Part shown: one piece after another, positions 1,518 through 63,468 of the stretch | Layout: each line of letters starts with the position of its first letter | How positions within the stretch are numbered: the first letter of the stretch is position 1 | DNA from: the human T2T-CHM13v2.0 reference genome, Homo sapiens | Strand: one strand, 5' to 3' | DNA: 64,000 nt | NCBI RefSeq assembly: GCF_009914755.1 | Contig: NC_060935.1 | Notes under the pieces: generated by a model | Seen by the model: the letters and a program-made list of their open reading frames with translations, nothing else | Databases searched by the model: none | Told to the model about the DNA's origin: nothing | Translations under genes and position numbers: made by a program

Positions 1518-1901
<384 letters not shown>

Positions 1902-8265: not shown

Positions 8266-9706
<1,441 letters not shown>

Positions 9707-12700
9707 TAGGGCAATCTCATACTATGTGTAAAGAGGAAAGACTTCCCTTGGCTCTAAAATAATCTAATATTTTGTGACACTTCCTTAATCCAGCTGTGTT
9801 TGGAGCAAACATTCTAACTGTAGAATTTGGTTCATCTGTAAAACAGAGCCTAATGTCTGATTGGAGACATAGGTAGTCTGAGATGACAGATGGAAAATAT
9901 AGCAGTGTTCTTTTCTGATGATCGTTTCATAGATATTTTGTGGATCTGACCCTATTTTTTTTAAGTTTGCTTTGCTTACCTTTGTTTTGTTCTTAGAGAC
10001 GTATCCTCATTACATTTCCTACATATCCCTGAAGGTTTTATATAAGATGCTGTATTTCCTGTGTTTTAAAAGTTTTTTAATTTTTCTATTCTTTTGGAAA
10101 ATGTGGCATTTAAGAGCATCCTTTGTTATAATACATTTGGATAGCATTATTCTTAAAACACCTCCCTACTTATTGGATGATTCGATTCTAACAACAATGT
10201 GAGGTAAATAGTGTAAATATAATCGTAGCTATTCAATTTCAGGAAAGTTTTAAAAACCTAGGTGAGAGTATACAGTTTGGCAAAGGATGCAGTAAAAGAC
10301 CTCTTTTGTGAGTAGGTCAGATAGATAGCTGTTTTATGGTGCTGTTGGAGGAACATTATCTTGAGGTTTTGCTCCAAGGTCTGTCTCTGTCTCTCACAAA
10401 GATGATCTTCCAGTTGTCCCTATAAAAATTATGTCTACATTTACATAATGGGTGAAAAAAGACTGGTCATTATGTCCTTGTGTATTTTTTAAGTGAATAC
10501 ATGATTGAGAAAGAAGAATACATTAGTTTAGACAACATAAATTGACAATTTATGTCCTGATTCCAAAAAAAGGAGAGAAATGCTTATGGCTAGAGATGTG
10601 CTATAGATCCATTGGTGTTTCTTCCCACTTTTTACCCGGGACTAAGATTTCTCTGCAAGGGCATACTACCTTCCAGTGAAAATTCCGTTCTAACATGACA
10701 CATGCCACAGAGAGTAAAAACCTTTGATTATGCCTATTTTGAGCATCTATAGCAGCTATTTTATTCAATATTAAGCCCCACAGTCAATCATGTATACTAA
10801 AAGTGAAGCCTATGGAACTCATTGAGATACAGTGAGAACCAACGCATTGTAAGCTACCAGAGCAACTAAACAACTAAATGACTGTCATTTTTGTATGGCT
10901 CTATAACATGAAATTTATATTTTACTTTAATATAGAGGCAATCTGGGTACTTTGCAATTCTTAAAAACTTATGATAACAGAGAAAGGAAGACTTTTTATG
11001 AAATCTCCAGTTTAAAGGTGGAGGCATACAGATTTCAGAGGATAAAAAAGAACATGTTCAAGAAAATACTGGCAGGAATTTCATATTAGAACAGGAACAA
11101 GGATGAGACTAAGAAGGAGGTCATCTGATAGGCAGCCAATTAAATTGAGATTCTGTTTAATTCAGTAAGTAGAGCCCTTATTTTTTTCTAAGTCAAAATT
11201 TTATGAAATCATTAAAAACACTGTGCAAATTATCAAGAAAACTATAGTCTATTTTATCAGACAATCTGACTCTATTGACTAATCCTTACTGAGTTTTTAT
11301 TTTACATCTACATTAGGGGATTGCAGCACATGCAGCAAAACATCACAGGAGTTTAATGTAGGTCCCTGCCATTTTGTAATATCTTGGTAGGTTATTGGTT
11401 AGTTAAAATCGTCTGAAAAAGTGGACATTCTGAGGTTTTTGTTGTTGTTGTTGTTGTTGTTTTAATGGCTAAAGATATGAGTCCCAAAAGGATATAAGAT
11501 TTAGGGTAGAAAATCACTACAGGTTGAAGCAGTAAATTCAGGCTTCCTCTTATCCTTTATGGCAGTTCTTAAAGGGTAAAAGGACAGAGCCACAAGGATT
11601 GATTGGCTGGGAGATCTTTAATGTAAGAAAGATCTTTAATGTAAGAAAGAGCTATGTTTGAGGTAATGTAATCACTCACTTAAATTTTGCCTGAACCTCA
11701 TTTCATGCAGCATATATCAATATTTATAATTTACTATCTCAATAAATAGCCTTATAGTTTTTTAAACAATTTTTAAGAGTATCTCAGTAAGGGCAAGCCT
11801 TTACTATTGCAAAGTTGATATAATATTACCAAATAATATTAAATAAAAACTAAACCCATAATCCCAACAATCCTAATATCAGAGTTATACTGTAAAAAAT
11901 GTATATTATCTTTTAATATCTCCATGTAGATTTTTCTATTTTTTAGGAAATTTGTATTTTTTTCTCAATTTTTGATGTCAAGAAAAAATTAGTTGAGAAA
12001 TCAGGACAATGATTATTCTGCGAGCATTAAAGCTTGAATATTAACAGAGACTTAACTGGTTTGGAGGAAGCAAAGCTGACATGCAAGGTCTAAGGTTAAA
12101 GTGACCATTTTCGTGAGTTGGCAGGAGAGAAATGATCATGATTTCCTCAGTCTTACCTGTAGCTCTTGCCATGTTATAAGCAGATGTTTATGGTCCTATC
12201 TTCAGCTAATGAGTAATTCTTGCACATAAGGTGACCAAAAATGCAAGTTTAGGAAACAAAATAAGACCTTAATATAGCGAGTTAAACACGTGATACTGTG
12301 TAGAGCCGTTTAACTTGCTTAGATGATCCTAATGTTACATTATGCAAATACTGCCCAATAAGGATGACTGGTGATTTCCAGTATTTAAATATTCACCCTA
12401 CACTACAGGTCCTTGTAAATACCACTACACTCAAAATTTTGTATTTATTAGACATTGAAAAAAGATATTCATAACAATTTGTAAAGAATCTGAGAAATCT
12501 TGGGCGTATTTTCAGAATAACATGGTTGCAGAAATTCCCAATTTCTGTCTAATTTCTTGTTCCCAGTCCTGAAGATTGGTATCTGGAGGGATGGAGAACA
12601 TTTAGAAACACTACATCTTTGATTCTTAGTTCACAGGAAACACTGTAAATAACAAGAATTTAAAAGTTTGTTTCTGACAGAGTTTCTATCTATATTTTCC

Positions 12701-21084: not shown

Positions 21085-26560
<5,476 letters not shown>

Positions 26561-29868: not shown

Positions 29869-31889
29869 CCTGCCCTGGGACCTGATAGCTTCACTGATGA
29901 ATTCTACCAGATATTTAATAAAGAATTAATATCAATCTTTTTTCAAAGTCTTCCAAAAATAAAAAGAAAGGAAAGAAGACTTTCAAACTCATTTCACAAG
30001 GCTAGTATTACCCTGATACTAAAGCCAGACAGATAAATAATTTAAAAACACTTACAGGCCAATATCTGTCATGAACATAGATACAAAAATTTTAACAGAA
30101 TACCAGCAAACTGAATTCAACAAACTATTAAAAGGCTGATATACTGTCATCAAGTGGGATTGATTCCTGAAATTCATGGATGGTTCAATATACACAAATT
30201 AATAAATGTAATACACCACATTAATAGAATGAAGGATGAAAATCATGTGATCATCTCAATATATGCAGAGAAAGTATTTGATAAAAAGCAACATCCTTTC
30301 ATGTAAAAAATTATCAACACATTATGTACAGGAGAAATGTACCTCAACACAACAAGCCCACAGCTAATATCATACTCAATGTTGAATGTTGAAAGCTTTT
30401 TTTCTAAGATCAAAAAACAAGACAAGAATTTCCCCACTTGCAACTTCAATTCAACATTGTTCTGGAAGTCCTAGTTAGAGGAATTAGGTAAGACAAGGAA
30501 ATAAAAGGCATCCAAAATGGAAACGATAGAGTAAATTTTTTCTGTTTGCAGATAACATGATTTTATACTAAGAAAATCCTAAAGACTTCACCAAAACACT
30601 GTTAGAACTAATAAATGAATTCAGTGAAGTCACAGGATACAAATCAACATATAAAAATCGATTGCATTCCTATGTACTAAAAACAAACTATCCAAAAAAT
30701 AAATTAAGAAAAAAATTCATTGAAAATACCACTCAAAAAGAATAAAATACATAGCAATAAATTTAATAAAATGAATGACATATCTGTATATTGAAAATTC
30801 TGATATTGATGAAGATTTAGGAAGACAAAAATAAATGCAAAGATATCCTCTGTTCATAGATCAGAGGAATCAATATTGTTAAAGTGTTCATACTACCCAG
30901 AAATGTAATCTCTATCAAAATTTCAAGGGCATTTTTCACTGAAATAAAAAAAAAAACCAAATCCTAAAAGTCACATGGAACCACAAAAAACTAAATAGCC
31001 AAAGTCGTAAGAATGGCAAGAAAAACAAAGCTGGAGATATCAAACTGCTTGATTTTTAAATATACTACAAAGCTAAAGTAATTGAAGCAGTATGGTGCTG
31101 CCATACATATGGGGATATACACTAATGGAATAAAACAGAAAGCCTAGAAATAAATCCACACATTTATGGTTAATTCATTTTTGGCAAAGGTACCAAGAAC
31201 ACACAGTGAGGAAAGAAAGGATAGTCTCTTCAATAAATCCTGCTGGAAAAACTGTATATTCACATACAAAAATAATGAAATTGGATCTTTATCACACACT
31301 ATTTAAAAAATCATTGCAAAATGGATTGAAGGCCCAAAACTGTAACAATACTAGAAGAAACCTTAGGGAAAAAGCTTCATGATATTGATCTGGGAAATGT
31401 TTTTTTGGATATGACCTCAACGTACAGGCAGCAAAAGTGAAAATGGACAAATGGGATTATATCAAACCAAAAATCTTCTATACAATAAAGGAAACAACAG
31501 AGTGAAAACACAACCAATGGAACTGCAGAAAATATTTGCAAACCATGCGTTTGATGAGGGTTTACTATACAAAATGTATAAGTAACTTAAAAATTTCAAT
31601 AGCAAGAAAGCAAATACACTGATTAAAAAATGGGCAAAGGAGCAGAATAGACATTTTTCAAAAGAAGACATACAAATGGACAACTGGTGTATGAAAAAAT
31701 GCTCGGCCTTACTAATTAGGGAAATGCAAATTAAAACCACAATGAGATATTACTTTGCAACTGTTAGAATGGCTAAGATATATACATGTGTGTAAATGTG
31801 TATGTATGTATACAGAAACCTGGGTCAATGTACACTGAGTGTCAAAAGTGCCTTTTGTTGGCCAGTTAAATGACCCTTTGTATATAGGC

Positions 31890-31923
<34 letters not shown>

Positions 31924-31957
31924 TGTGCATATATATGTGTGTGTGTATATATATATA
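31890..31957. repeat. Compound (TG)n/(TA)n microsatellite
   Basis: Read directly from the sequence. Confidence 0.95.
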
Positions 31958-34900
31958 ACACAACAGAATACCATGCTTTACATGCTTAATCTTAAACACA
32001 AAGAAGTCTTAAACACAAGGAAATCTTGTCATTTGTGACAGCATGGATGTACCTGGAGAACATTTTTGTTAGGTGAAGTAAGCCAGGCTCAAAAAGCAAA
32101 TACTGCATGATCTCACTCATATGTGGAACTAAAAAAAGTCAAACTTACAGAAGCAGAGTAGAATGGTGGTCTTCATGGTCTGGGGTGTGGGAAAATAAAG
32201 TGATGTTGGTCAAAGGGTACAAAGTGTCAGTTATGCAGAGTGAGTAAATCCTGGAGACCTAATCTATAACTTGATGAATATAGTTAATACACTATTATAT
32301 GTTTAAAATTTGCTAAAGGAGTGGATCTTAAATGTTCTCCAGATCCCCACACACACTCAATGGTAAGGATCTTAGATAATGGATATATTAATCAATTTGG
32401 TTCTGGTAATCATTTCATAATGTACACTTGTATCAAACCATTCTATTATACACATTAAATAGATACAGTTTTTTGTCAATTATACCCAATAAAGCTAGAA
32501 AAAAAAAAGAAGATGAAAATCATGGAGTTTTGAGAGATATAGGATTTACAGGTTGACTTGATGTGGATATACAAAATAAGAGAGAAGTCAAGGGGAGCTC
32601 CCTGTTTCTGGCTTTGACAATGAGCTGGATGCTAGTACCCTTCACTACAAGGAGAAATCAATATGTATTACAAATTAGCTACACAGGAACGGGTTGACAT
32701 CACATTTGAACCTGTTGTTTGTGTAATACATCCACTGGTGACATTGAATGAAGGGTTGGGTTTATGGTTATAGAGCTCAGGAAATACAGATTTTGGAGTC
32801 TTAGCCTTATACATGAACACTGAATCCTTAGAAATAAATAAGATATTCCAGATAAAGCGTGTAAAGCATCGCAAGTGAGGCTAGAAATGAGGAATTGAGA
32901 ATGCCAAATGTAAAGTGAGTTGCAGGAGAAGAGCCTGCTTTTGAAGAATCTGTGAATAAAGTGCCTCAGAATACAGAGACTATAGGAGGGAAACGTCTGC
33001 AGTGATATTTGCTTGAAACAAGTTAACTTTTACTTTGGCTTATGAATAATTGGTGTCCCTGTCAAGAGCATTTCCCATGAATTAATTATGAGAGAAGTCA
33101 CACAACAGTAGTTCCAGAAATGTGTGAGAATTAGAAAATGAAGGCTGTAAAATGCAACAAGCTATTGAATGGACAGGAATCTTAGAATTTTAAAGTCAAA
33201 GAAATGCTGACCACAGTTAAGAGATATCAGAAGAGAAGAATCTGTGGTTATGCAAAATAGTTATACAACAGTTATACAAAGGCCAGCTGGCTCTTATTAA
33301 ATAGAAAATGCGGGAAAAGTGGAGGAATGGCATGCAATATTCAAAAACTCCTGTTGCTTTCTACAATTATCATTGAAAGTCACATAGTACATCCTTACTA
33401 ATGTTTAGTGTCTTGTCCTTATGTGATATTTGTAAGAGCACGGCTCCTTTTTCTGTATTATTGACCAGCCTTCACATTTTATTTGGGAGTATAATTTAAT
33501 TTTATAAGACATGTGGAAAATAAAACTTTTACCAAATAGTCTTTTAAGAATCTAAATGGATACAGTTAACTGTTTCCAACGTGAAACCTCACTGATTAAA
33601 CAAACATGTATTGAGTGACTGCTAAATGCCAGGTACTGAACACATAGAAGAAAATAAAGCATTTTTTAAAAACTAAACAAACAAATAAAAAACTGCCCCA
33701 TGGTGTTAACATACAACCTTCACTTATAAAATTTTATGTTTACCTTAAATTTCATGTAGTTTCATAAACAAATCCATTAAATTTCATGTTATGTGATGAG
33801 ACCTGTCATTTCTTATTCTTTTCCCTAACCCTCAATATCTCATACAGTTCTCTGAGTAAATGGAATTAATATTAAAATGACCTACTTAATTATTACCACA
33901 TTTACTAAAATATTGGGAATTAAATAATTAAAGATATTTACTAATATGAGAATTGGATTGGTTTCAAATATGAAGTAGCCATATCATCTGACTATATTTT
34001 ATGTAAGTTGAGCTGGCCCAATTTGTGATAATAAGGACAAAATCTCAGAGATCCTCTAAGGGAGAACGCAGTAATCTTTATTAATTCCCCATCTTTGATT
34101 CAACCATTTTGACTTATTTTTCCTATTTTTAGAAATTTTAAGGAAAGCACTTTACCATAAGTTGACCCTGATTAGTACCACTTTTCCTTATGTGATTCTC
34201 CATGAAGTTACAGAAAGGACAATAATAATTATTACCATTTACTTTCACTGTTATTTTACAATGAAACACAATCTGTGAAAATAAAAATGAAAGTCCTATC
34301 TAAAGTAAATATCTTCTCCCTGCTACAATATAGATTGTGGTTTAATTTTCAAACATATATTTTAAATTCATATTTGAAGTGAAAACTGTTTTTTGTTTGT
34401 TTGTTTGTTTGGGGGATGCAAAATTTAGTAGCACAAATAACCTTTACATGTTTCCAATGAACTAGCATAGATGAGTCACTGAGGTAAAAGCTGTCACTAT
34501 TGAGTTTGTACCAACTCTACTGTAAACATAGAAAGGTTATAATGTGGTAATATATTGTGGCTAAAAGACAAAGTTTAGCAATATTATGTATTTGAAAGTT
34601 TAATTTTAGTTTAGTATATTTTTCATTTCATAAATTTGAAGTAAAAGTAGAAAGGAATAATGATAAAATGATGAGGTTCTCAACACTTCAGGCAATTTGG
34701 AAATTCTCTAATTAGCAATAATTGCAGAATCAGCGCTTACTACACACTTGAAATAAATGCCTCTTTAAACAAACTACAATTTAAATATTTCTCATACAAA
34801 TATAGAAAACAACGTTGTCTTAAAAGGAAATAAAATAAAAACGTACTGATAAGCTGCTGAGTTAATTGCTGTGTTCAAATTGTCCTATCTATTTTTACCT

Positions 34901-35400
34901 TTAAAAATGTATGCCCTACTCTTTTATTACCATCTGCAGAGATGAAAAACTATAATTTTTGCACTTGAATTAAAGCCATGCTCACCTACTTTAAAAATAA
35001 TAACTGATACTTCATGTCTCATGATATCAAGGAAAAAGTAGAATAAATCCATATTAAATTAATAATAACATAATTAATGTATTTATGCTACCATACCATA
35101 TTAAGTGTTTTGAGAAAAGGGACAAAATACTTCTAGTTTATTGTTTTGATTGTTGGAAGGATCCAGAAGCAAATAATTTCTAAATAGTAGTTTTTTCTTA
35201 TTTCTTAATTTGTAGTATTTACTTTTTTTCATTGTGGTTTTGATTTTAAGTTTATTAGAAATAGAAATTATAATGTTGTGTTTCAGGGTGTATGTAAGGT
35301 ATTAATTTTAGCTTGTTAACCAATGAGTGCACTTTTCTTTTTCCTGCAACAACTTGCTCTCTCAGCTGGACTTCTTTCTATCTAACCAGATACTTTCAAG

Positions 35401-35628
35401 ATCTGGGAGCTTCAGGTTCCTTGCTCCCTTGGCTTTGCCGTTGATAACTTCCTGTCCAATCCTACCAAAGTCTGGAACTGGAACATCCAAGGGTTGCCCT
35501 TAGACGCCTTCTCTACTGAGAATGGCATCATCATCAAGCGAGGCCATAGGTAAGGGTGCAGCTGGGAGCGGGTGTGGCCTGGGAGCAGGGGCTGTCCTCT
35601 GACCTGTGCTCCCCCTTTAGGTGGGCAC
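35401..35628 (+). pseudogene. Orphan axonemal dynein heavy chain (DNAH2-like) gene fragment: exon 35401-35549, intron 35550-35620, first bases of next exon
   Basis: Translates to [50 protein letters not shown]/WA, matching the dynein W..QGLP.D..S.EN.II....RW motif. Donor AG|GTAAGG, branch CTGAC, acceptor CCCCCTTTAG|G. Confidence 0.88.
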
Positions 35629-35796
35629 GGTAATACAAACAAAAAGAGCTGGAGAATGGTCCAGGTCCAAACATAGCTACTTTCAAACCGTTGATAACTG
35701 GGATGAAAAACAAGAATTTCGTGATGGTATTGTTTAAAAAAGAATGAAAGACTAACTTGCTTTTCTTAGTATTTACTAAATCAGAAACCTTGCTGT

Positions 35797-35818
35797 ACAC
35801 ACACACACACACACACAC
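35797..35818. repeat. (CA)n microsatellite
   Basis: Read directly from the sequence. Confidence 0.95.
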
Positions 35819-36401
35819 TTACTTTCTTAAACATAAGGAAGCTGCTTGTATTGGTTTTTTGCTTCTTTATGTTTTCCTTTAATATAAAATTGGATAAAAT
35901 GTTTGAATGCCGTTATTTTACTTTTCTTAACTCTGTGTGTAGAGTGTTATGCAATTTTTTTCCTCTTCATATAATTTACAATCCTTTAGATTTTAAAAGT
36001 TACGTTTTTCTCATTTTCTTTCTTTGTAAATGGTAGTGGGTAGCAATTTGTGGATTTAGGTGAAGTGACATAGACTTTCCTATGTCACTTCTTTCACAGG
36101 AAGAAGTGTTTAAACTATAAACTGAGGAGGAGAAAATATCTAGGAAAAGAGAAGAAAGTTGGCAAAACCATGGTCTCCTTCTTCCTGAATTTGTAACTTG
36201 GCCTACAAAGAAAGCATCAGTCCTACTACACAGGAAGAGTCAACACTCGGAGGAGGCCTTCTGCACTTTGTCCTCTCCTTCTTTTCACTCCTCATAATGG
36301 GAAAGAAAGTAAGTTATCTAATCTGTGAAATAAGAATATGTTGCATATAACCAGTTTGGCCTCTTCTTCGTCTTTTTGGAGGGGCATATGCTTAGAAAAC
36401 A

Positions 36402-36719
36402 CAGTTTTCCCCTCTTACCTTTCTTGGGAGACATGTTCCACGATTGTCAGTGCATGCCTGAAATGTATGATAGGACTGAACACTAAATTTACGGTGCTCG
36501 TTCCTGTACATATACTATGATAAAGTTTAATTTATTAGGTATAGTAAGAGATTGATAATAATATCTAATAGTAAAATAAAAAATATAAGAAGATACTGTA
36601 AAAATGTTACGTAGATATAGTCTTTCTCTCCCTCTCAAAATCCTGTAATACTCAGACCATAATTGACTGCAGGTAAATGAAACCACAGAAGACAAAACAC
36701 GGATAAGGTGGGACTATCG
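36402..36719 (-). mobile_element. MER44-like TcMar-Tigger MITE
   Basis: Degenerate TIRs cagttttcccctcttacc... and ...cggataaggtgggactatcg(ta); internal atgataaagtttaatttat. Confidence 0.7.
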
Positions 36720-37927
36720 TATTCATGCTTTTCTCTGCTATGAAATAATTTTACCACATTAGGGTCTGTGAATGCAGCCAGGGGAAGGGTGCTATTATGG
36801 GAGAGTGCCTCACTTTCAGGCAAAAGATATTCACAATAATCTTAGGACACCAACTTAATGGTAAAGGAGTTTTGCTTATTTCTAACTATCTGAATAGGGT
36901 GTGGACTTCTTAGTTTGTTCACAATTAAATAGAAGGGAGAGAAACATGATTATTTGGAAGTTCTGATTAATGTTTAACACTCTTGAAAATATAATGGAGT
37001 AAATGCATCTAATCATGGTCATTTACTCTTTTGCCATGACAATAAAACACTTTGAACTTGAATCCTAAAAGATATTTAAATTCTTATCTATAAATGATGT
37101 GATTTCTTTCCCATCTAGCCTAATCTCTGGTATATTTAACATGATGAATCCATATACATTTTGGGAACATACGCTTTATTTGAGAATTTATTCCATTCCC
37201 TAAGTATTTCTGAGCACAAATTCTATTTTATATAATTTGGTAGGTTCTGTGCAGATGAGAATAAAAGGGGGATCGTTTACCCTAATAAATGCTTATAGTT
37301 TTAGGAAAGGATAGACATTAAACAAAAAAATTGGTAAATATATAATTACAATTTGTGACAAGTACATTGAAGGAATTTTTAAAATCTCATTTTTATGCCA
37401 GTAAATAACAGGATATCCAGTTTAGACTGAGGATCAGAGAAGTCCTCTCTGAGGAAGTGCCTCTTAAGATGATGGCTGAAGAAGGCATATGAGTTAGCCC
37501 AATGGACAATGAAAGGAAAATTACTGTATTACAAGCAGAAAAAAACAACATGTGAATGCCTGGAGGCCCTGAGGCCCTTAGGTGAGAAACTGCTTGTCTG
37601 CATGTGGTTCAGAGAAAACAAATTATATAAAACGAAGTTAGCAGCGTCGGAAAGGTTTGTTAAGGATTTTTTCTTTTAAGATTTTGTAAGACCACTCAGG
37701 CTATTGTTTCGAGAATGAATCAGAGGCAGGAGTAGGGTTGGCGAGGATGCAAAAGAGATGGGGATATCTAATATTACTTTAGCAGACTCTCTCCTTTCTG
37801 TCACTTGTTATCCTGTGAAGATATCACTTGCTGCCCAATGAATAAAAATTAGGAAAATTGGTCTCCTGTTTTCTCATGCTCAGGGAACATCTTCTTTTCT
37901 GTACTTTTCTTCAGACAGGGAAGATCA

Positions 37928-39290
37928 GTGAAGTAATAAGAAATACACATATTGGTCTGTAACCCCAGTCCCTAGCACAGAACTCCTAAAACTATTGCAA
38001 TTTTCTGAGCAATAGAGGTGCTAAAAGAATCTTTTGTTCTAATGTTTAGTCTCTGCCCTGATTCCTGAGACAAAGCTCCTAGTAACATTGTAGATAAAGG
38101 TGGTAGGTTAATTGTTTGTTCTAATATTTGGTCTTTGATGTAGGGTCTTGGCACAGAGGTCCTAAATCCTTTTGAATTTCCTGGGTAATAGAAGTATCTT
38201 TGGTTGTAATGAGGTGACTTGGTGGGTTTTAGGATGGGGCTGGTCACCAGAAAGACTAAACCGTGGTTATATGCTTGGAGCTCTCATCCCCACCCCCCAT
38301 TCCTCAAAGAGAAGAGAAGGGCTGCAAATGGAGTTTATAATCAGTCATGGCTACATGATGAAGCCTCCCTAAAAATCTTTGAACTATGGGGTTCAGGAGC
38401 TTCTGAGTTGGTGAACACATCTGAGTGCTGGGAGGATGGTGCACCTCAACTCCATAGGGACAGAAGCTATCCTTCCAGACCTCACCCTATGTACCTCTTC
38501 CTCTGGCTGTTCATCTGTATCCTTGGTTATATCCATGATTAATAAGCCAGTAATTCTAAGTAAACTGTTTCTCTGACTTCTGTGAGCCACTAATGCAAAA
38601 CATGATTTATAGCTGGTTAAGAGGAAGTATTGTTGATAACCTACTACTTGCAATTGGCCTTTGAAGTGGGGGAAATTTTTATGGTAATAAGCCTTTAACT
38701 TGTGGGATCTGACACCATATTAGTCCATTCTCATGTTGCTAATAAAGACATACCCAAGACTGGGTAATTTATAAAGGAAAGAGGTTTAATTGACTCACAG
38801 TTTAGCATCTCTGGGGAGACCTCAGACAACTTACAATCCTGGCAGACAGGGAAGCAAACATGTGTTTTTTCACATGGCAGCAGGAGAGAGAATGAGAACC
38901 AAGTGAAGGGAGAAGCCCCTTATAAACCATCAGATCTCATGAGAACTTACTATCACAAGAATAGCATGGGTAAAATAGCCCCCATGATTCAATTACCTCC
39001 CATCAGGTTTCTCGCAGGACATATGGAAATTATGGGAACTACAATTCAAGATGAGATTTGCATGGGAACACAGCCAAACCATATCAGACACTATCCAGAT
39101 CCCATTATCTATCTAGATAGTGTCAGAATTAAATTGAATTATAGGAAACCCAGCTAGTGTCTGCCGGAGAATTATTTGGTGTGTGGGGCAAGACTCCCAT
39201 ACATCTAGTGTCAGAAATGTGGAGGTGAGTGATTGGTTGAGTGCATGAGACTAGAAATAAACAATATGATTTTTTCTTAAATCTCAGAAG
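37928..39290. mobile_element. MER21-family solo LTR interrupted by a THE1 LTR
   Basis: aagtaataagaaatacacatattggtct...cctagcacagaactcctaaa with internal ~80-bp repeated units. Confidence 0.75.
38716..39086 (-). mobile_element. THE1 (THE1C-like) MaLR solo LTR with 5-bp TSD GACAC
   Basis: tattagtccattctc...cagccaaaccatatca; gacac at 38711-38715 and 39087-39091. Confidence 0.9.
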
Positions 39291-41194
39291 GCCAACACTT
39301 TGCTTTTCTAGTTCTGAAATAATCAGAAAATAGGAGTGTCATTTTGCTGAGAATTGCCGTTTCAGACCAAAAATACACTGAACTTCAGAAAAAGATTAAG
39401 CAGTTCTGAGAATCAAGGGCTATGAAAGTAAAACGAAAATAAGACAGAGAGGAAGGAAAAAAGTGTGACTTCCTATTCTCATGCCTCAGTGTGTGTGTGT
39501 GGGGGGGGTGGGGTGGGAGTGTATGTGCGTGCTCATATATGCACTAGTTTAAGAATCTAGTATGTTTCAATTAATTTTAATTTTCAGTTTGTCTTCAAAA
39601 TCCATGTCTTCTTCCAGAGGTCCACTTTCAATAACAAAAACACTTCTACTTGCCTTTCTTTAGAAACTTAAACTATCATAAAAGTCATTTCTCTTTTCCT
39701 TCTTGAATTATTCAAAGTCTGGTGCCTTAGACTTTCTTCTTCTGCCCAGACTATGCTCACACTGATGAAACCTGGGGAATCTATTCCTTTGGGTTGGGGA
39801 ATATTCCCTATTCTCTCCAACAGTAAACATAAAAGATGAATTTCTTCCTAAATTACTTAAGGGCAGACACACCAGTTCTAAGTATATTACATTTTCTCTA
39901 AAGCACACATAGTTTAGTCTCATTAAGGAATATAAATTTATCCCATCAATTAGACTTTGACCTGACTTGAAAAATGATAGCCTTAGTATTATGATGCTGA
40001 GAAGCATTTGCCTCCTTCCCAAGTCCTCTTTCAATACAGAAAGACACTACATTAGCTGAGAATGCAATATGTGGGAAATTGCCTTGATGCAGTGGAAGCA
40101 CTAACTGGTGAGCTATCCCAGAGGTCGAGGAACAGAAAGGCTTTCAGACCAAATTAAAATGACCAAACCACATGGCTTATTAAATTGATTAAAATACTGA
40201 GCAAAAAACAAGGAGAATGAATTGGGGTAAGGTAATTCACTTACAGAGGTGCAAACAGGGTGAAAGGACTACACTCCCTGAGTCCTAGGGTTCACAATGT
40301 GCATAAATCTTGCTTCTCTTTTGAAACATCAGCCTTCATGGGTGCTGGTTCAATGATGAGGGCCAGAGTTAATGTCTGAACAGAGAAGGGCCCCAAGGGA
40401 AGATATCCGGAACCAAGGACACAAACCTCCTCTTTCAGAGAGATGCAGGAGAAGTGTGCTTGATGCAAGAGTAGCATCAATTCATTTGTTGAACAGCCTT
40501 TGGTTTTATTTGCACTTTTGGGCAGGATCAGAATAGAACCATACTTGGTATCTTATTGAACTTCTTGGGTAGGACTAGAATAGAACCATGCTGTGTGTCA
40601 ACAAGTGGTGGCTAATTGAGGTTTAATAAAGTTCTTGATCAAGAAGAAGTGGCATCCTCAAGATGTGGGTCTTTTCATCCTTTGCATCTAAGCAGCATAT
40701 TTTTGTTCCATCACATTTTCTATTTATTCTATCTCTGGTTGTCATACAGGTTACTAACTTACTATCTGTTTTACCAGATCATCTGAATTCTACCTATGTC
40801 TCACAAATTACTTCTTTTTCATTATATATAATAAACCTATCCTGTGGGTTTTGCCTATATCTCACATGCTTATTTTCCAGCATATTGTTGTCCATGTTTA
40901 GCACTTCTTATGAATTCCATCCATCCTATTTGTTTTTTAATCTTCTATAGCAGAACTGAATATTCTCAACAGTACAGCAAAATCCCATTACATAATGCCA
41001 TTAGCCAATCCATCTAATTTGATTACTGTTATAATCACAAAATTTGTTCATTGTATTCCCCAATATTTTTCCAGACCAAAAAAAGAGAGCTTGCATTTTT
41101 TAAAGGAATTAAGAGACATTTGTCATACTTCAATTGAGAGATGATTTTTGCCTTAGCCTGGGCCTACCACACCAGATGTGGAAAAATGGATGAA

Positions 41195-58848: not shown

Positions 58849-59197
<349 letters not shown>

Positions 59198-62419: not shown

Positions 62420-63468
62420 CTATTGTGGTAAAAATACATACCCCCGGCCAGGCACAGTGGCTCACGCCTGTAATCCCAGCACTTTGGGAGACCAAGGTGG
62501 GCAGATCACGAGGTCAGGAGATGGAGACCATCCTGGCTAACACGGTGAAAACCCGTCTCTACTAAAAATACAAAAAGATTAGCTGGGTGTAGTGGCAGGT
62601 GCCTGTAGTCCCAGCTTATCGGGAGGCTGAGGCAGGAGAATGGCTTGAACCTGGGAGGCAGAGCTTGCAGTGAGATTGGGCCACTGTACTCCAGCCTGGG
62701 TGACAGAGGGAGACTCTGTCTCAAAAAAAAAAAAAAAAACCCAAAACAAAAACATACCCCCAAATTGACCATCTTAACATTTTTACATGTGGTGTTTGGT
62801 GATAATAAATACATTCATAATGTCATAACAGTCACCCCAATCTACCTCCAGAATTCTTCTTTATCTTGTAAAACTGAGATTCTAGATCATTAAATAGTAA
62901 CTCCCCATTTCCTCCTACCCACTGTCCCTGACCATCACCATTCTACTTTCTGTCTTTATGAATTTGAGACCCTAGGTACCTCATATGTAAGTGAAATCAT
63001 ACAGTGTTGGTTTTTCTGTTGCTGCCTTATTTCACATAGCCTAATGTTCTGAAGGTTCATTCATATTGTAACAAATGTCAGAACTTTGTTTTTAAGGCTA
63101 AAATTCCATTATGAGTGTATACCACATTTTGTTTATCCATTTATCATTTATTGGTTAGTTGTGTGGCCTCCACATTTTAGATATTGTGAACAATGCTTCT
63201 ATGAATGTGGGTGTATAAATAAATCTTTGAGACCCTGCATTCAATTATTTTAGGGACGTACCCATAGATGGAATTTCTGGATCATATGGTAACTCCACTT
63301 CTAATTTGTGCAGAACTTTCATGCAGCTTTCCTCAGTAGCTGTACCAATTGAAATTCTCAACGACAGATCACAGGGTTCTAATTATTCTACATCCCTGCA
63401 AACACTTGTTATTTTCTGTTTGTTTGTTTGTTTGTTTTGATGGGAATCATTCTAATGGGTATGAGGCA
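62420..63468 (-). mobile_element. L1MB-type 3' end interrupted by the AluY
   Basis: tattgtggtaaaa...aaattgaccatcttaacattttta...taggtacctcatatgtaagtgaaatcatacagt. Confidence 0.85.
62446..62751 (+). mobile_element. AluY with TSD acataccccc
   Basis: gaccatcctggctaacacggtgaaa; TSD at 62436-62445 and 62752-62761. Confidence 0.93.

What the first reader, a model, noticed from the sequence alone, without database searches (positions are those of the whole stretch)
35401..35628. Stranded intron-containing dynein heavy chain (DNAH2-like) fragment next to the caspase cluster
Seen in sequence: a GC-richer island in AT-rich DNA has a stop-free 149-nt frame, [49 protein letters not shown]. A canonical 71-nt intron follows (GTAAGG...CTGAC...CCCCCTTTAG), then G TGG GCA C, which splices in frame to give R-W-A before homology stops. 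It is absent from the supplied ORF track. Established knowledge: W..QGLP.D..S.EN.II....RW.L.IDPQ marks the stalk/AAA5 boundary of dynein heavy chains. By recall the closest match is DNAH2 ([10 protein letters not shown]...[35 protein letters not shown]), which lies on another chromosome. Inference: with a retained intron, no poly(A) and no evident TSD, this is not a processed pseudogene but a small capture of genomic DNA or pre-mRNA, for example templated insertion at a double-strand break. Apparent R>W and V>I changes fit CpG decay. The 5' edge (ttcAAG|ATC) could be an acceptor or the preceding Lys codon. I do not recall an annotation for this fragment.
Basis: partly seen in the sequence, partly recalled or inferred. 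Interest (0 to 1): 0.85.

Follow-up and report, generated by a model that had tools for sequence, protein, structure and literature searches.

The report
Old DNAH2 gene scrap near CASP12
A 230-base piece of the dynein gene DNAH2 (one exon, its short intron and 8 bases of the next exon) was copied long ago from chromosome 17 into chromosome 11 beside CASP12, has decayed as non-coding DNA, and now lends its splice donor to a predicted long non-coding RNA: a real but fairly ordinary genomic fossil.

Summary
Window 35399-35628 has one relative in the genome, the DNAH2 locus on chr17 (E 4.7e-64, 198 of 239 aligned columns). It holds the whole 149-nt exon for DNAH2 residues 3341-3390, the following intron (71 nt here, 80 nt in DNAH2) and the first 8 nt of the next exon. 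Both edges are sharp. The 5' edge lies 1-2 nt before the exon start, so DNA and RNA sources cannot be told apart. The copy shows no sign of coding constraint: dN/dS is 0.58, and the open frame is expected by chance in 11086 of 20000 simulations. Divergence suggests an age of tens of millions of years. No other DNAH2 piece lies in the window. The DNAH2-derived donor (35549|35550) is the annotated end of exon 1 of lncRNA LOC107984380. Also, 35675-35699 repeats the 12 nt that abut the 5' junction plus 12 nt from inside the copy (0 of 5000 shuffles). This may be a target-site duplication or a template-switch scar, and it is unresolved. Best reading: an old, fixed, short templated insertion, that is, an unprocessed pseudogene fragment. 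It is a new member of a known kind, of modest interest.

The parts
35399..35400 (+). 5' junction: AG shared with DNAH2. It matches the last 2 nt of the upstream intron and equally the last 2 nt of the upstream exon. A35399 is also the last base of the flanking 12-mer.
35401..35549 (+). Copy of the complete 149-nt DNAH2 exon encoding residues 3341-3390. 132 of 149 nt are identical to chr17, 40 of 50 aa are identical, and there is no indel.
35550..35620 (+). Copy of the following DNAH2 intron (71 nt here, 80 nt in DNAH2). 57 of 71 aligned bases are identical, with 9 gap columns. The GT donor, the CTGAC branch-like motif, the pyrimidine tract and the AG are kept.
35621..35628 (+). First 8 nt of the next DNAH2 exon (8 of 8 identical). 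Homology ends here.
35429..35442 (+). Cluster of 7 of the 17 exon mismatches within 14 nt, overlapping the left end of the interior 12-mer. The first 28 nt of the exon copy have none.
   Evidence: 169 of 20000 random placements reach 7 in 14 nt
35388..35399 (+). 12-mer directly abutting the 5' junction; first copy of the direct repeat (candidate target-site duplication).
35438..35449 (+). Interior 12-mer of the exon copy. It differs from DNAH2 at 2 of 12 positions and recurs exactly downstream.
35629..35674 (+). 46 nt of unassigned sequence between the DNAH2 3' edge and the downstream repeat. It is either filler or original target DNA, and it is A-rich at its start.
   Evidence: no source found
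35675..35699 (+). Compound repeat: 35675-35686 copies 35388-35399 (11 of 12), then 1 nt, then 35688-35699 copies 35438-35449 (12 of 12).
   Evidence: (joint pattern in 0 of 5000 shuffles)
35349..35549 (+). Exon 1 of predicted lncRNA LOC107984380 (hub annotation). 149 of its 201 nt and its splice donor come from the DNAH2 copy.
   Evidence: hub gene table; (all annotated borders canonical; 35550 is the only donor-like site scoring 7 or more of 9 in 35380-35700)

Best explanation
Window 35399-35628 is a dead, non-coding copy of a short stretch of the DNAH2 gene: one whole exon, its 80-nt intron and 8 nt of the next exon. It was copied once from chr17 into an unrelated, AT-rich, single-copy site on chr11 upstream of CASP12. 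The copying used unspliced template (genomic DNA or pre-mRNA) and happened during repair of a chromosome break or a stalled fork, by end joining or template switching. This is the process described for class 2 templated sequence insertions. The source gene stayed intact. The event is old, roughly tens of millions of years, and is presumably fixed. Since then the copy has drifted neutrally. Its only visible present-day activity is passive: the inherited 5' splice site is used as the donor of the first exon of a predicted lncRNA that runs antisense into CASP12. Shown here: the identity of the source, the retained exon-intron structure, the sharp edges, the single copy, the lack of coding constraint, and the coincidence with the annotated donor. 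Inferred: the repair mechanism, the age, and real use of the donor.
For: Source and uniqueness: the whole-genome DNA search gives 2 matches, self and C17:7721658-7721896 (E 4.7e-64). The protein search puts the chr17 place at 80% identity and the next place at 43%. The best PDB hit is human DNAH2 residues 3341-3390, and the chr17 exon translates to exactly that.
Structure: the upstream chr17 exon ends at K3340. The window copy therefore starts at the exon border, runs through the intron, and stops 8 nt into the next exon.
Sharp edges: 150 nt on each side show no similarity to 400 nt of the matching DNAH2 flank (76 of 500 and 434 of 500 shuffles reach the observed score). In the intron control, 0 of 500 shuffles do so.
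No other DNAH2 piece: 40 kb of DNAH2 against the whole window gives 236 blastn hits, of which 235 fall in seven Alu-like places and 1 is this fragment. In tblastx of 30001-41000, 11 of 18 hits are this fragment and the other 7 are short, with E of 4.8e-4 or worse.
Flanks are single copy. The same tool does detect a 70%-identical old repeat 800 nt away.
Neutral decay: dN/dS is 0.58. 17 random substitutions leave the frame open in 11086 of 20000 trials. 4 of 17 exon changes are CpG transitions, and the CpG count falls from 6 to 3. Against the cattle protein, human DNAH2 keeps the cattle residue at 7 of the 10 differing positions.
Known mechanism: the review PMC5110952 (passages read) describes short inserts copied from distant transcribed, including intronic, sequence at breaks, with the donor left intact.
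lncRNA: the hub table gives exon 1 as 35349-35549, and all annotated borders are canonical.
Against: No orthologous empty site could be examined, so insertion at a break, the junction features and the age are not demonstrated. A 12-nt direct repeat (11 of 12) flanks the insert region; 27 of 5000 shuffles match it, and the word length was chosen after seeing it. Class 2 insertions as defined have no target-site duplication. The exact 12-mer shared between the copy's interior and the downstream flank (7 of 5000 shuffles), and the mismatch cluster next to it (169 of 20000), are not explained by a simple cut-and-patch event. A 5' edge falling within 2 nt of an exon border is an unexplained coincidence under either a DNA or an RNA template. 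The lncRNA is a predicted model. I saw no expression data, and no paper names it.
Confidence: 0.7

Rival explanations
1. L1-mediated insertion in trans (class 1 templated insertion, a semi-processed retrocopy). A short unspliced DNAH2 pre-mRNA piece was reverse transcribed at an L1 endonuclease nick, leaving a target-site duplication.
For: A candidate 12-nt duplication (11 of 12) abuts the 5' junction exactly and recurs downstream. The 16 nt starting 3 nt after the DNAH2 3' edge are A-rich. From recall, DNAH2 is expressed in testis.
Against: The A-rich stretch is short, interrupted and separated from the downstream repeat by about 30 nt of other sequence, whereas a poly(A) tail should touch the 3' duplication. 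No TTTT/A-type site is visible at the start of the repeat (criteria from PMC5110952). DNAH2 homology ends inside an exon with no polyadenylation signal. The A-rich run is unremarkable in DNA of 25-30% GC.
Confidence: 0.1
2. Remnant of a larger DNA-level duplication of the DNAH2 region, later trimmed on both sides by deletions and unrelated insertions.
For: The intron is retained, as in duplicated (unprocessed) pseudogenes.
Against: Homology stops abruptly on both sides although the neighbouring DNAH2 intron and exon should be as recognisable as the retained intron. No other DNAH2 piece occurs anywhere in the 64-kb window within the 40 kb of DNAH2 tested. The flanks are unique, non-repeat DNA. 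About 80 kb of DNAH2 further upstream was not compared with the window.
Confidence: 0.1
3. Multi-step microhomology-guided template switching (MMBIR or polymerase-theta type). A broken or stalled 3' end copied 12 nt of nearby target, jumped to DNAH2 and returned to the target. On this reading the 25-nt compound repeat and the mismatch cluster are scars of the same event.
For: The compound repeat is non-random (0 of 5000 shuffles). One of its blocks ends exactly at the DNAH2 junction. The interior 12-mer shares its last 7 nt with native DNAH2. The mismatch cluster sits beside it. Multi-template events using microhomology are described in PMC8421209 (passages read). Mismatch-tolerant microhomology is mentioned in the abstract of PMC13015775 (listing only).
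Against: I could not find one series of switches that yields the observed order of blocks without an extra step. Native DNAH2 is not significantly similar to the downstream site (221 of 1000 shuffles). The nearby templated insertions searched for in PMC8421209 are inverted copies within 100 bp, whereas these are direct copies 250-287 nt away. The repeat could instead be a later, separate local event: only 1 of 24 repeat bases differ, against 11-20% divergence from DNAH2.
Confidence: 0.08
4. A functional coding micro-domain or exon under selection, with a dynein stalk/AAA5 peptide reused by a new gene.
For: A 55-aa stop-free frame exists, and there is a weak Pfam AAA_9 match (E 3.1e-5).
Against: The Pfam score is 23.6 bits, below the 27.4 cut-off, and covers only 23 of 222 profile positions. 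The translated frame contains no methionine. dN/dS is 0.58, as expected when one copy is neutral. The frame stays open by chance in 55% of simulations. Conserved residues are lost, for example R>W and D>N just ahead of the conserved WNIQGLP motif. The locus is annotated only as lncRNA (hub).
Confidence: 0.01

Closest known systems
Class 2 templated sequence insertions (TSI/TSIP; review PMC5110952, passages read)
   Same: A short insert copied from a distant transcribed region, including intronic sequence, with the donor intact. There is no poly(A) tail at the insert end and no L1 target motif.
   Different: This one is old and presumably fixed rather than polymorphic. A candidate 12-nt flanking repeat is present, which class 2 events lack by definition. 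Junction features cannot be read without the empty site.
Unprocessed (duplicated) pseudogene fragment
   Same: It is derived from a protein-coding gene with an intron retained, and it is decayed and non-coding.
   Different: It holds only 1 exon plus 8 nt, that is 50 of 4427 codons, on another chromosome, with sharp edges. It is far below the size of segmental duplications (the usual definition, from recall, is at least 1 kb and at least 90% identity).
Processed pseudogene or L1-mediated class 1 TSIP
   Same: An interchromosomal copy of genic sequence, with a possible flanking direct repeat.
   Different: The intron is kept. There is no poly(A) next to the downstream repeat and no TTTT/A site.
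MMBIR / polymerase-theta templated insertions (PMC8421209 passages; PMC13015775 abstract start only)
   Same: A short compound copy of nearby sequence (35675-35699) with a template jump and possible 7-nt microhomology.
   Different: The copies are direct, not inverted, and the templates lie 250-287 nt away. The main insert is 230 nt from another chromosome.
NUMTs and other filler DNA captured at double-strand breaks (mentioned in PMC5110952)
   Same: Foreign DNA patched into a break and then left to decay neutrally.
   Different: The donor is a nuclear gene, not mitochondrial DNA.

Membership tests
DNAH2-derived sequence | The best genome-wide relative is DNAH2, at both DNA and protein level | tested here: met
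   only non-self match is C17:7721658-7721896, E 4.7e-64; 80% identity against 43% for the next place; human DNAH2, E 1.9e-21.
DNAH2-derived sequence | Exon-intron layout of the source is retained | tested here: met
   149-nt exon without indel, intron with GT...AG, and 8 nt of the next exon.
Functional dynein heavy chain / Pfam AAA_9 (PF12781) domain | Domain match above the curated cut-off and of full extent | tested here: not met
   23.6 bits against a cut-off of 27.4, covering profile positions 2-24 of 222.
Functional dynein heavy chain / Pfam AAA_9 (PF12781) domain | Purifying selection on the frame | tested here: not met
   dN/dS 0.58 against the constrained parent. The open frame is expected by chance in 11086 of 20000 trials. 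The sample is small (49 codons).
Processed pseudogene (L1 retrocopy) | Introns removed | tested here: not met
   the intron is retained at 80% identity.
Processed pseudogene (L1 retrocopy) / class 1 TSIP | Poly(A) tract of 10-40 A next to the 3' target-site duplication, and a TTTT/A target | tested here: not met
   only a short interrupted A-rich run, about 30 nt away from the downstream repeat, and no TTTT/A at the repeat start. Criteria are from PMC5110952.
Processed pseudogene (L1 retrocopy) / class 1 TSIP | Target-site duplication of at least 5 bp | tested here: inconclusive
   a 12-nt repeat (11 of 12) abuts the 5' junction and recurs 46 nt past the 3' edge. 27 of 5000 shuffles match it, and the word length was chosen post hoc.
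Class 2 templated sequence insertion | Insert copied from a distant, transcribed region, with the donor left intact | tested here: met
   the chr17 exon and its neighbours are intact and encode the solved DNAH2 protein.
Class 2 templated sequence insertion | No target-site duplication, poly(A) or cryptic poly(A) signal | tested here: inconclusive
   There is no poly(A), but a candidate 12-nt flanking repeat exists.
Class 2 templated sequence insertion | End-joining marks at the junctions (microdeletion, microhomology, non-templated bases) | not testable with these tools
   This needs the empty site from other species, and no other mammalian genome is held. Visible here: 0-2 nt of possible overlap at the 5' junction and 46 unassigned nt at the 3' side.
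Segmental duplication | At least 1 kb at 90% identity or more (definition recalled) | tested here: not met
   230 nt, 198 of 239 columns identical.
lncRNA exon (LOC107984380) | Canonical splice sites at the annotated borders | tested here: met
   GT follows 35549, 36308 and 42229. AG precedes 36100, 37402, 42123 and 53343.
lncRNA exon (LOC107984380) | Transcript evidence | not testable with these tools
   This is a predicted RefSeq model (hub). No RNA data are held, and 0 papers name the locus.

The most novel reading that the evidence does not exclude
The locus preserves the scar of a single multi-step, microhomology-guided template-switch repair. The template was a partly spliced DNAH2 pre-mRNA, with the upstream intron removed and the short downstream intron retained, which would explain the exon-precise 5' edge. 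The captured splice donor then founded a new lncRNA antisense to CASP12. It would be a readable fossil of RNA-templated break repair in the primate germ line that gave rise to a transcript.
Probability: 0.12. Interest if true: 0.5.

Novelty: new member of a known kind. Interest (0 to 1): 0.25.

Why it matters
Short interchromosomal patches of genic DNA are known as polymorphisms and in experiments, but old, fixed examples with readable structure are rarely described one by one. This one is clean: it has a single donor, sharp edges and a retained intron. Its possible junction scar could be decoded as soon as orthologous loci are aligned. It also shows how a captured splice donor can define the first exon of a new non-coding transcript next to the inflammatory caspase cluster. 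For annotation, it explains why a dynein-like open frame sits upstream of CASP12 and warns against calling it coding. It changes nothing about dynein or caspase biology.

Tried and rejected
(1) Chance similarity is rejected.
(2) More DNAH2 in the window: none was found within the 40 kb of DNAH2 tested. About 80 kb of DNAH2 further upstream was not compared, but the genome-wide search with 35250-35800 found only the one place.
(3) Homology extending into the flanks is not significant. The best upstream local match (12 of 14) falls in the upstream DNAH2 exon, but 76 of 500 shuffles reach its score.
(4) Flanks as repeats: they are unique, apart from a CA microsatellite.
(5) Source of the 46 nt at 35629-35674: nothing in the genome, nothing above chance in 40 kb of DNAH2, and no mosaic of local pieces (19 of 46 nt covered, with 486 of 2000 shuffles at least as high). 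The two flank reading frames match only themselves.
(6) Circular-RNA or back-splice origin: no downstream DNAH2 exon end lies upstream of 35399.
(7) Dating by orthologues: the protein database search returned 1 unrelated 168-aa hit out of 3 candidates. No mammalian genomes are held, so only a cattle DNAH2 chain from the PDB served as outgroup.
(8) Rfam: one sub-threshold SCARNA7 hit (24.3 bits against 65) over the CA-repeat area, treated as chance.
(9) The literature search on pseudogene-fragment lncRNAs gave nothing relevant among the 8 papers listed of 120.

Full report
**What is there.**
- Window 35401-35549 is 149 nt and translates without a stop to a 50-residue peptide. It lies inside a 55-aa stop-to-stop frame, 35386-35553.
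- A 71-nt GT...AG stretch follows at 35550-35620, then 8 nt at 35621-35628.
- GC is 0.555 at 35400-35599, against 0.25-0.30 on both sides.

**Identity of the source.**
- A whole-genome DNA search with 35250-35800 gave 2 matches. One is the window itself; the other is G000:C17:7721658-7721896, E 4.7e-64, 83% identity, covering query 150-379, which is window 35399-35628.
- A sensitive blastn of window 34401-36600 against the chr17 locus L002 gave one significant alignment: 198 of 239 columns identical, 9 gap columns, window 35399-35628 against L002 1501-1739.
- At protein level the genome-wide search returned 9 matches: self, then the chr17 place at 80% identity (E 5.2e-21), then other places at 43% or less.
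- Among solved structures, 60 distinct chains matched at E up to 1. The best is human DNAH2, 8j07_k9 residues 3341-3390, E 1.9e-21.
- The chr17 exon translates exactly to those residues.
- The 21 codons before the upstream chr17 donor are DNAH2 residues 3320-3340. The exon borders on chr17 are therefore L002 1357|1358 and 1502|1503.
- Pfam sees only the first 23 positions of AAA_9 (PF12781), at 23.6 bits against a cut-off of 27.4.

**Anatomy.** The chr11 copy contains:
- AG at 35399-35400;
- the entire 149-nt exon, 132 of 149 nt identical, no indel;
- the following intron, 71 nt against 80 nt in DNAH2, with 57 of 71 aligned bases identical and 9 gap columns;
- the first 8 nt of the next exon, 8 of 8 identical.

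**Edges.**
- Homology then stops. 150 nt on either side show no similarity to 400 nt of the corresponding DNAH2 flank. The observed score is reached by 76 of 500 shuffles upstream and 434 of 500 downstream; for the intron as positive control, by 0 of 500.
- The 5' edge therefore lies 1-2 nt before the exon's first base. Those bases (AG) end both the upstream intron (CAG) and the upstream exon (AAG).
- The third base back, A35398, matches the spliced form. It is also part of a flanking 12-mer that recurs downstream, so it carries no weight.

**Nothing else from DNAH2.**
- 40 kb of chr17 around the exon (C17:7701700-7741699) gave 236 blastn hits against the whole window. Of these, 235 fall in seven Alu-like places and 1 is the fragment.
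- tblastx of window 30001-41000 gave 18 hits. Eleven belong to the fragment. The other 7 are short, with E of 4.8e-4 or worse.
- The immediate flanks, 34700-35398 and 35629-36330, are single copy in the genome apart from a CA repeat.
- The same tool does find an old repeat at about 70% identity at window 36392-36723, so it would have seen old repeats next to the fragment.

**State of the copy.**
- dN is 0.109, dS is 0.187 and dN/dS is 0.58 against the parent exon. A ratio near 0.5 is expected if one copy is constrained and the other neutral.
- Seventeen random substitutions leave the frame open in 11086 of 20000 trials. The open frame is therefore no evidence of function.
- Four of the 17 exon differences are CpG transitions in the direction DNAH2 to copy, and the CpG count falls from 6 to 3.
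- PDB entry 9fqr serves as a cattle outgroup. It is called bovine in a figure legend of bioRxiv 10.1101/2024.12.03.626701 (passages only).
- At the 10 residues where the copy and human DNAH2 differ, cattle agrees with human at 7, with the copy at 1 (Ser where human has Cys3359), and with neither at 2. Most change is therefore on the chr11 copy. The copy may predate the Ser>Cys change in the human DNAH2 lineage.

**Age.**
- The intron differs at 14 of 71 sites. The Jukes-Cantor distance is 0.23, with a 95% interval of 0.12-0.40, or about 0.11 per lineage.
- With recalled neutral rates of 1 to 2.2 x 10^-9 per site per year, this gives very roughly 50-115 million years, with a much wider true uncertainty.
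- As an internal yardstick, Alu copies on chr17 and in the window are 74-87% identical to one another. This is a similar range.
- No other mammalian genome is held here, so presence or absence in other species could not be tested. The one protein-database attempt gave nothing useful.

- The repeat finder shows that the 12 nt abutting the 5' junction (35388-35399) recur at 35675-35686 (11 of 12).
- One base later, 35688-35699 repeats 35438-35449 from inside the exon copy (12 of 12). That 12-mer carries both of the copy's differences from native DNAH2.
- Against 5000 dinucleotide shuffles of 35629-35828:
  - a junction-abutting 12-mer at 11 of 12 or better occurs in 27 (the word length was chosen after seeing it);
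  - any exact 12-mer shared with the fragment occurs in 7;
  - the joint pattern occurs in 0.
- Seven of the 17 exon mismatches lie in 35429-35442, beside this 12-mer (169 of 20000 random placements). The first 28 nt of the exon copy have none.
- The 46 nt between the DNAH2 edge and the repeat have no detectable source.
- Native DNAH2 is not significantly similar to the downstream site (221 of 1000).

**Three readings of this repeat.** All remain open.
- A 12-nt target-site duplication with 46 nt of filler. The interior 12-mer is then unexplained.
- A later local templated patch. This is supported by only 1 difference in 24 repeat bases against 11-20% divergence from DNAH2. The coincidence with the junction is then unexplained.
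- Template switching between the target and DNAH2 through the shared 7-nt end of the 12-mer. I could not derive the observed block order from this without an extra step.

**Present-day role.**
- The hub's RefSeq table gives exon 1 of predicted lncRNA LOC107984380 as 35349-35549. Its 3' end is therefore exactly the DNAH2-derived donor, and 149 of its 201 nt are DNAH2-derived.
- All annotated borders of this gene are canonical in the window. The site at 35550 is the only one in 35380-35700 matching 7 or more of 9 consensus donor positions.
- The transcript runs on the + strand into CASP12, which is on the - strand.
- This is annotation, not expression data. No paper names the locus (0 papers).

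**Comparison with the known.**
- The closest described process is the class 2 templated sequence insertion. These are short patches copied from distant transcribed or intronic sequence into breaks, with the donor intact and no poly(A) or L1 target (PMC5110952, passages read).
- The fragment meets the donor-intact and genic-template features.
- The 'no target-site duplication' feature is inconclusive. The junction marks cannot be tested without an empty site.
- L1-mediated (class 1 or processed) origin fails on intron loss, on a poly(A) next to the repeat, and on the target motif.
- It is far too small and too diverged to be a segmental duplication.
- The nearby templated insertions of the MMBIR type searched for in PMC8421209 (passages read) are inverted and within 100 bp, unlike the direct repeat here.
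- No paper combines DNAH2, pseudogene and CASP12 (0 papers). Pseudogene catalogues such as GENCODE could not be consulted.

**Verdict.**
It is plausible but unproven on mechanism.
- This is a new member of a known kind. It has two small points of added interest: the co-opted splice donor and the unresolved junction scar.

Noticed in passing
window 36392-36723: An old interspersed repeat. The first look found 835 candidates, of which 40 were scored: self plus 39 others at 69-80% identity on many chromosomes. The family was not identified.
   Followed up: no
window about 35797-35818: A (CA)n microsatellite about 170 nt downstream of the fragment. It accounts for all 10 non-self genome hits of the 3' flank and for a sub-threshold Rfam SCARNA7 hit (24.3 bits against 65).
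   Followed up: partly
window 1577-1843, 9396-9707, 25150-25462, 58850-59139, 62446-62739, plus shorter pieces near 24319-24431 and 63026-63130: Alu-like repeats that match dozens of places in 40 kb of the DNAH2 locus at 74-91% identity.
   Followed up: no
window 35320-35324: A CCAAT motif lies 25-29 nt upstream of the annotated start of LOC107984380 (35349). This is closer than a typical CCAAT box, and its significance is unknown.
   Followed up: no
window 35621-35635: Right after the retained acceptor and the 8 exon bases, the junction with non-DNAH2 sequence creates a GT. The inherited acceptor could therefore in principle define a 9-nt micro-exon. The site did not reach 7 of 9 consensus donor positions, and no annotation uses it.
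   Followed up: partly
L002 1652-1731 (chr17): The DNAH2 intron copied here is only 80 nt and G+C-rich. From recall, such short introns are often retained, which would suit a pre-mRNA template. This was not tested.
   Followed up: no
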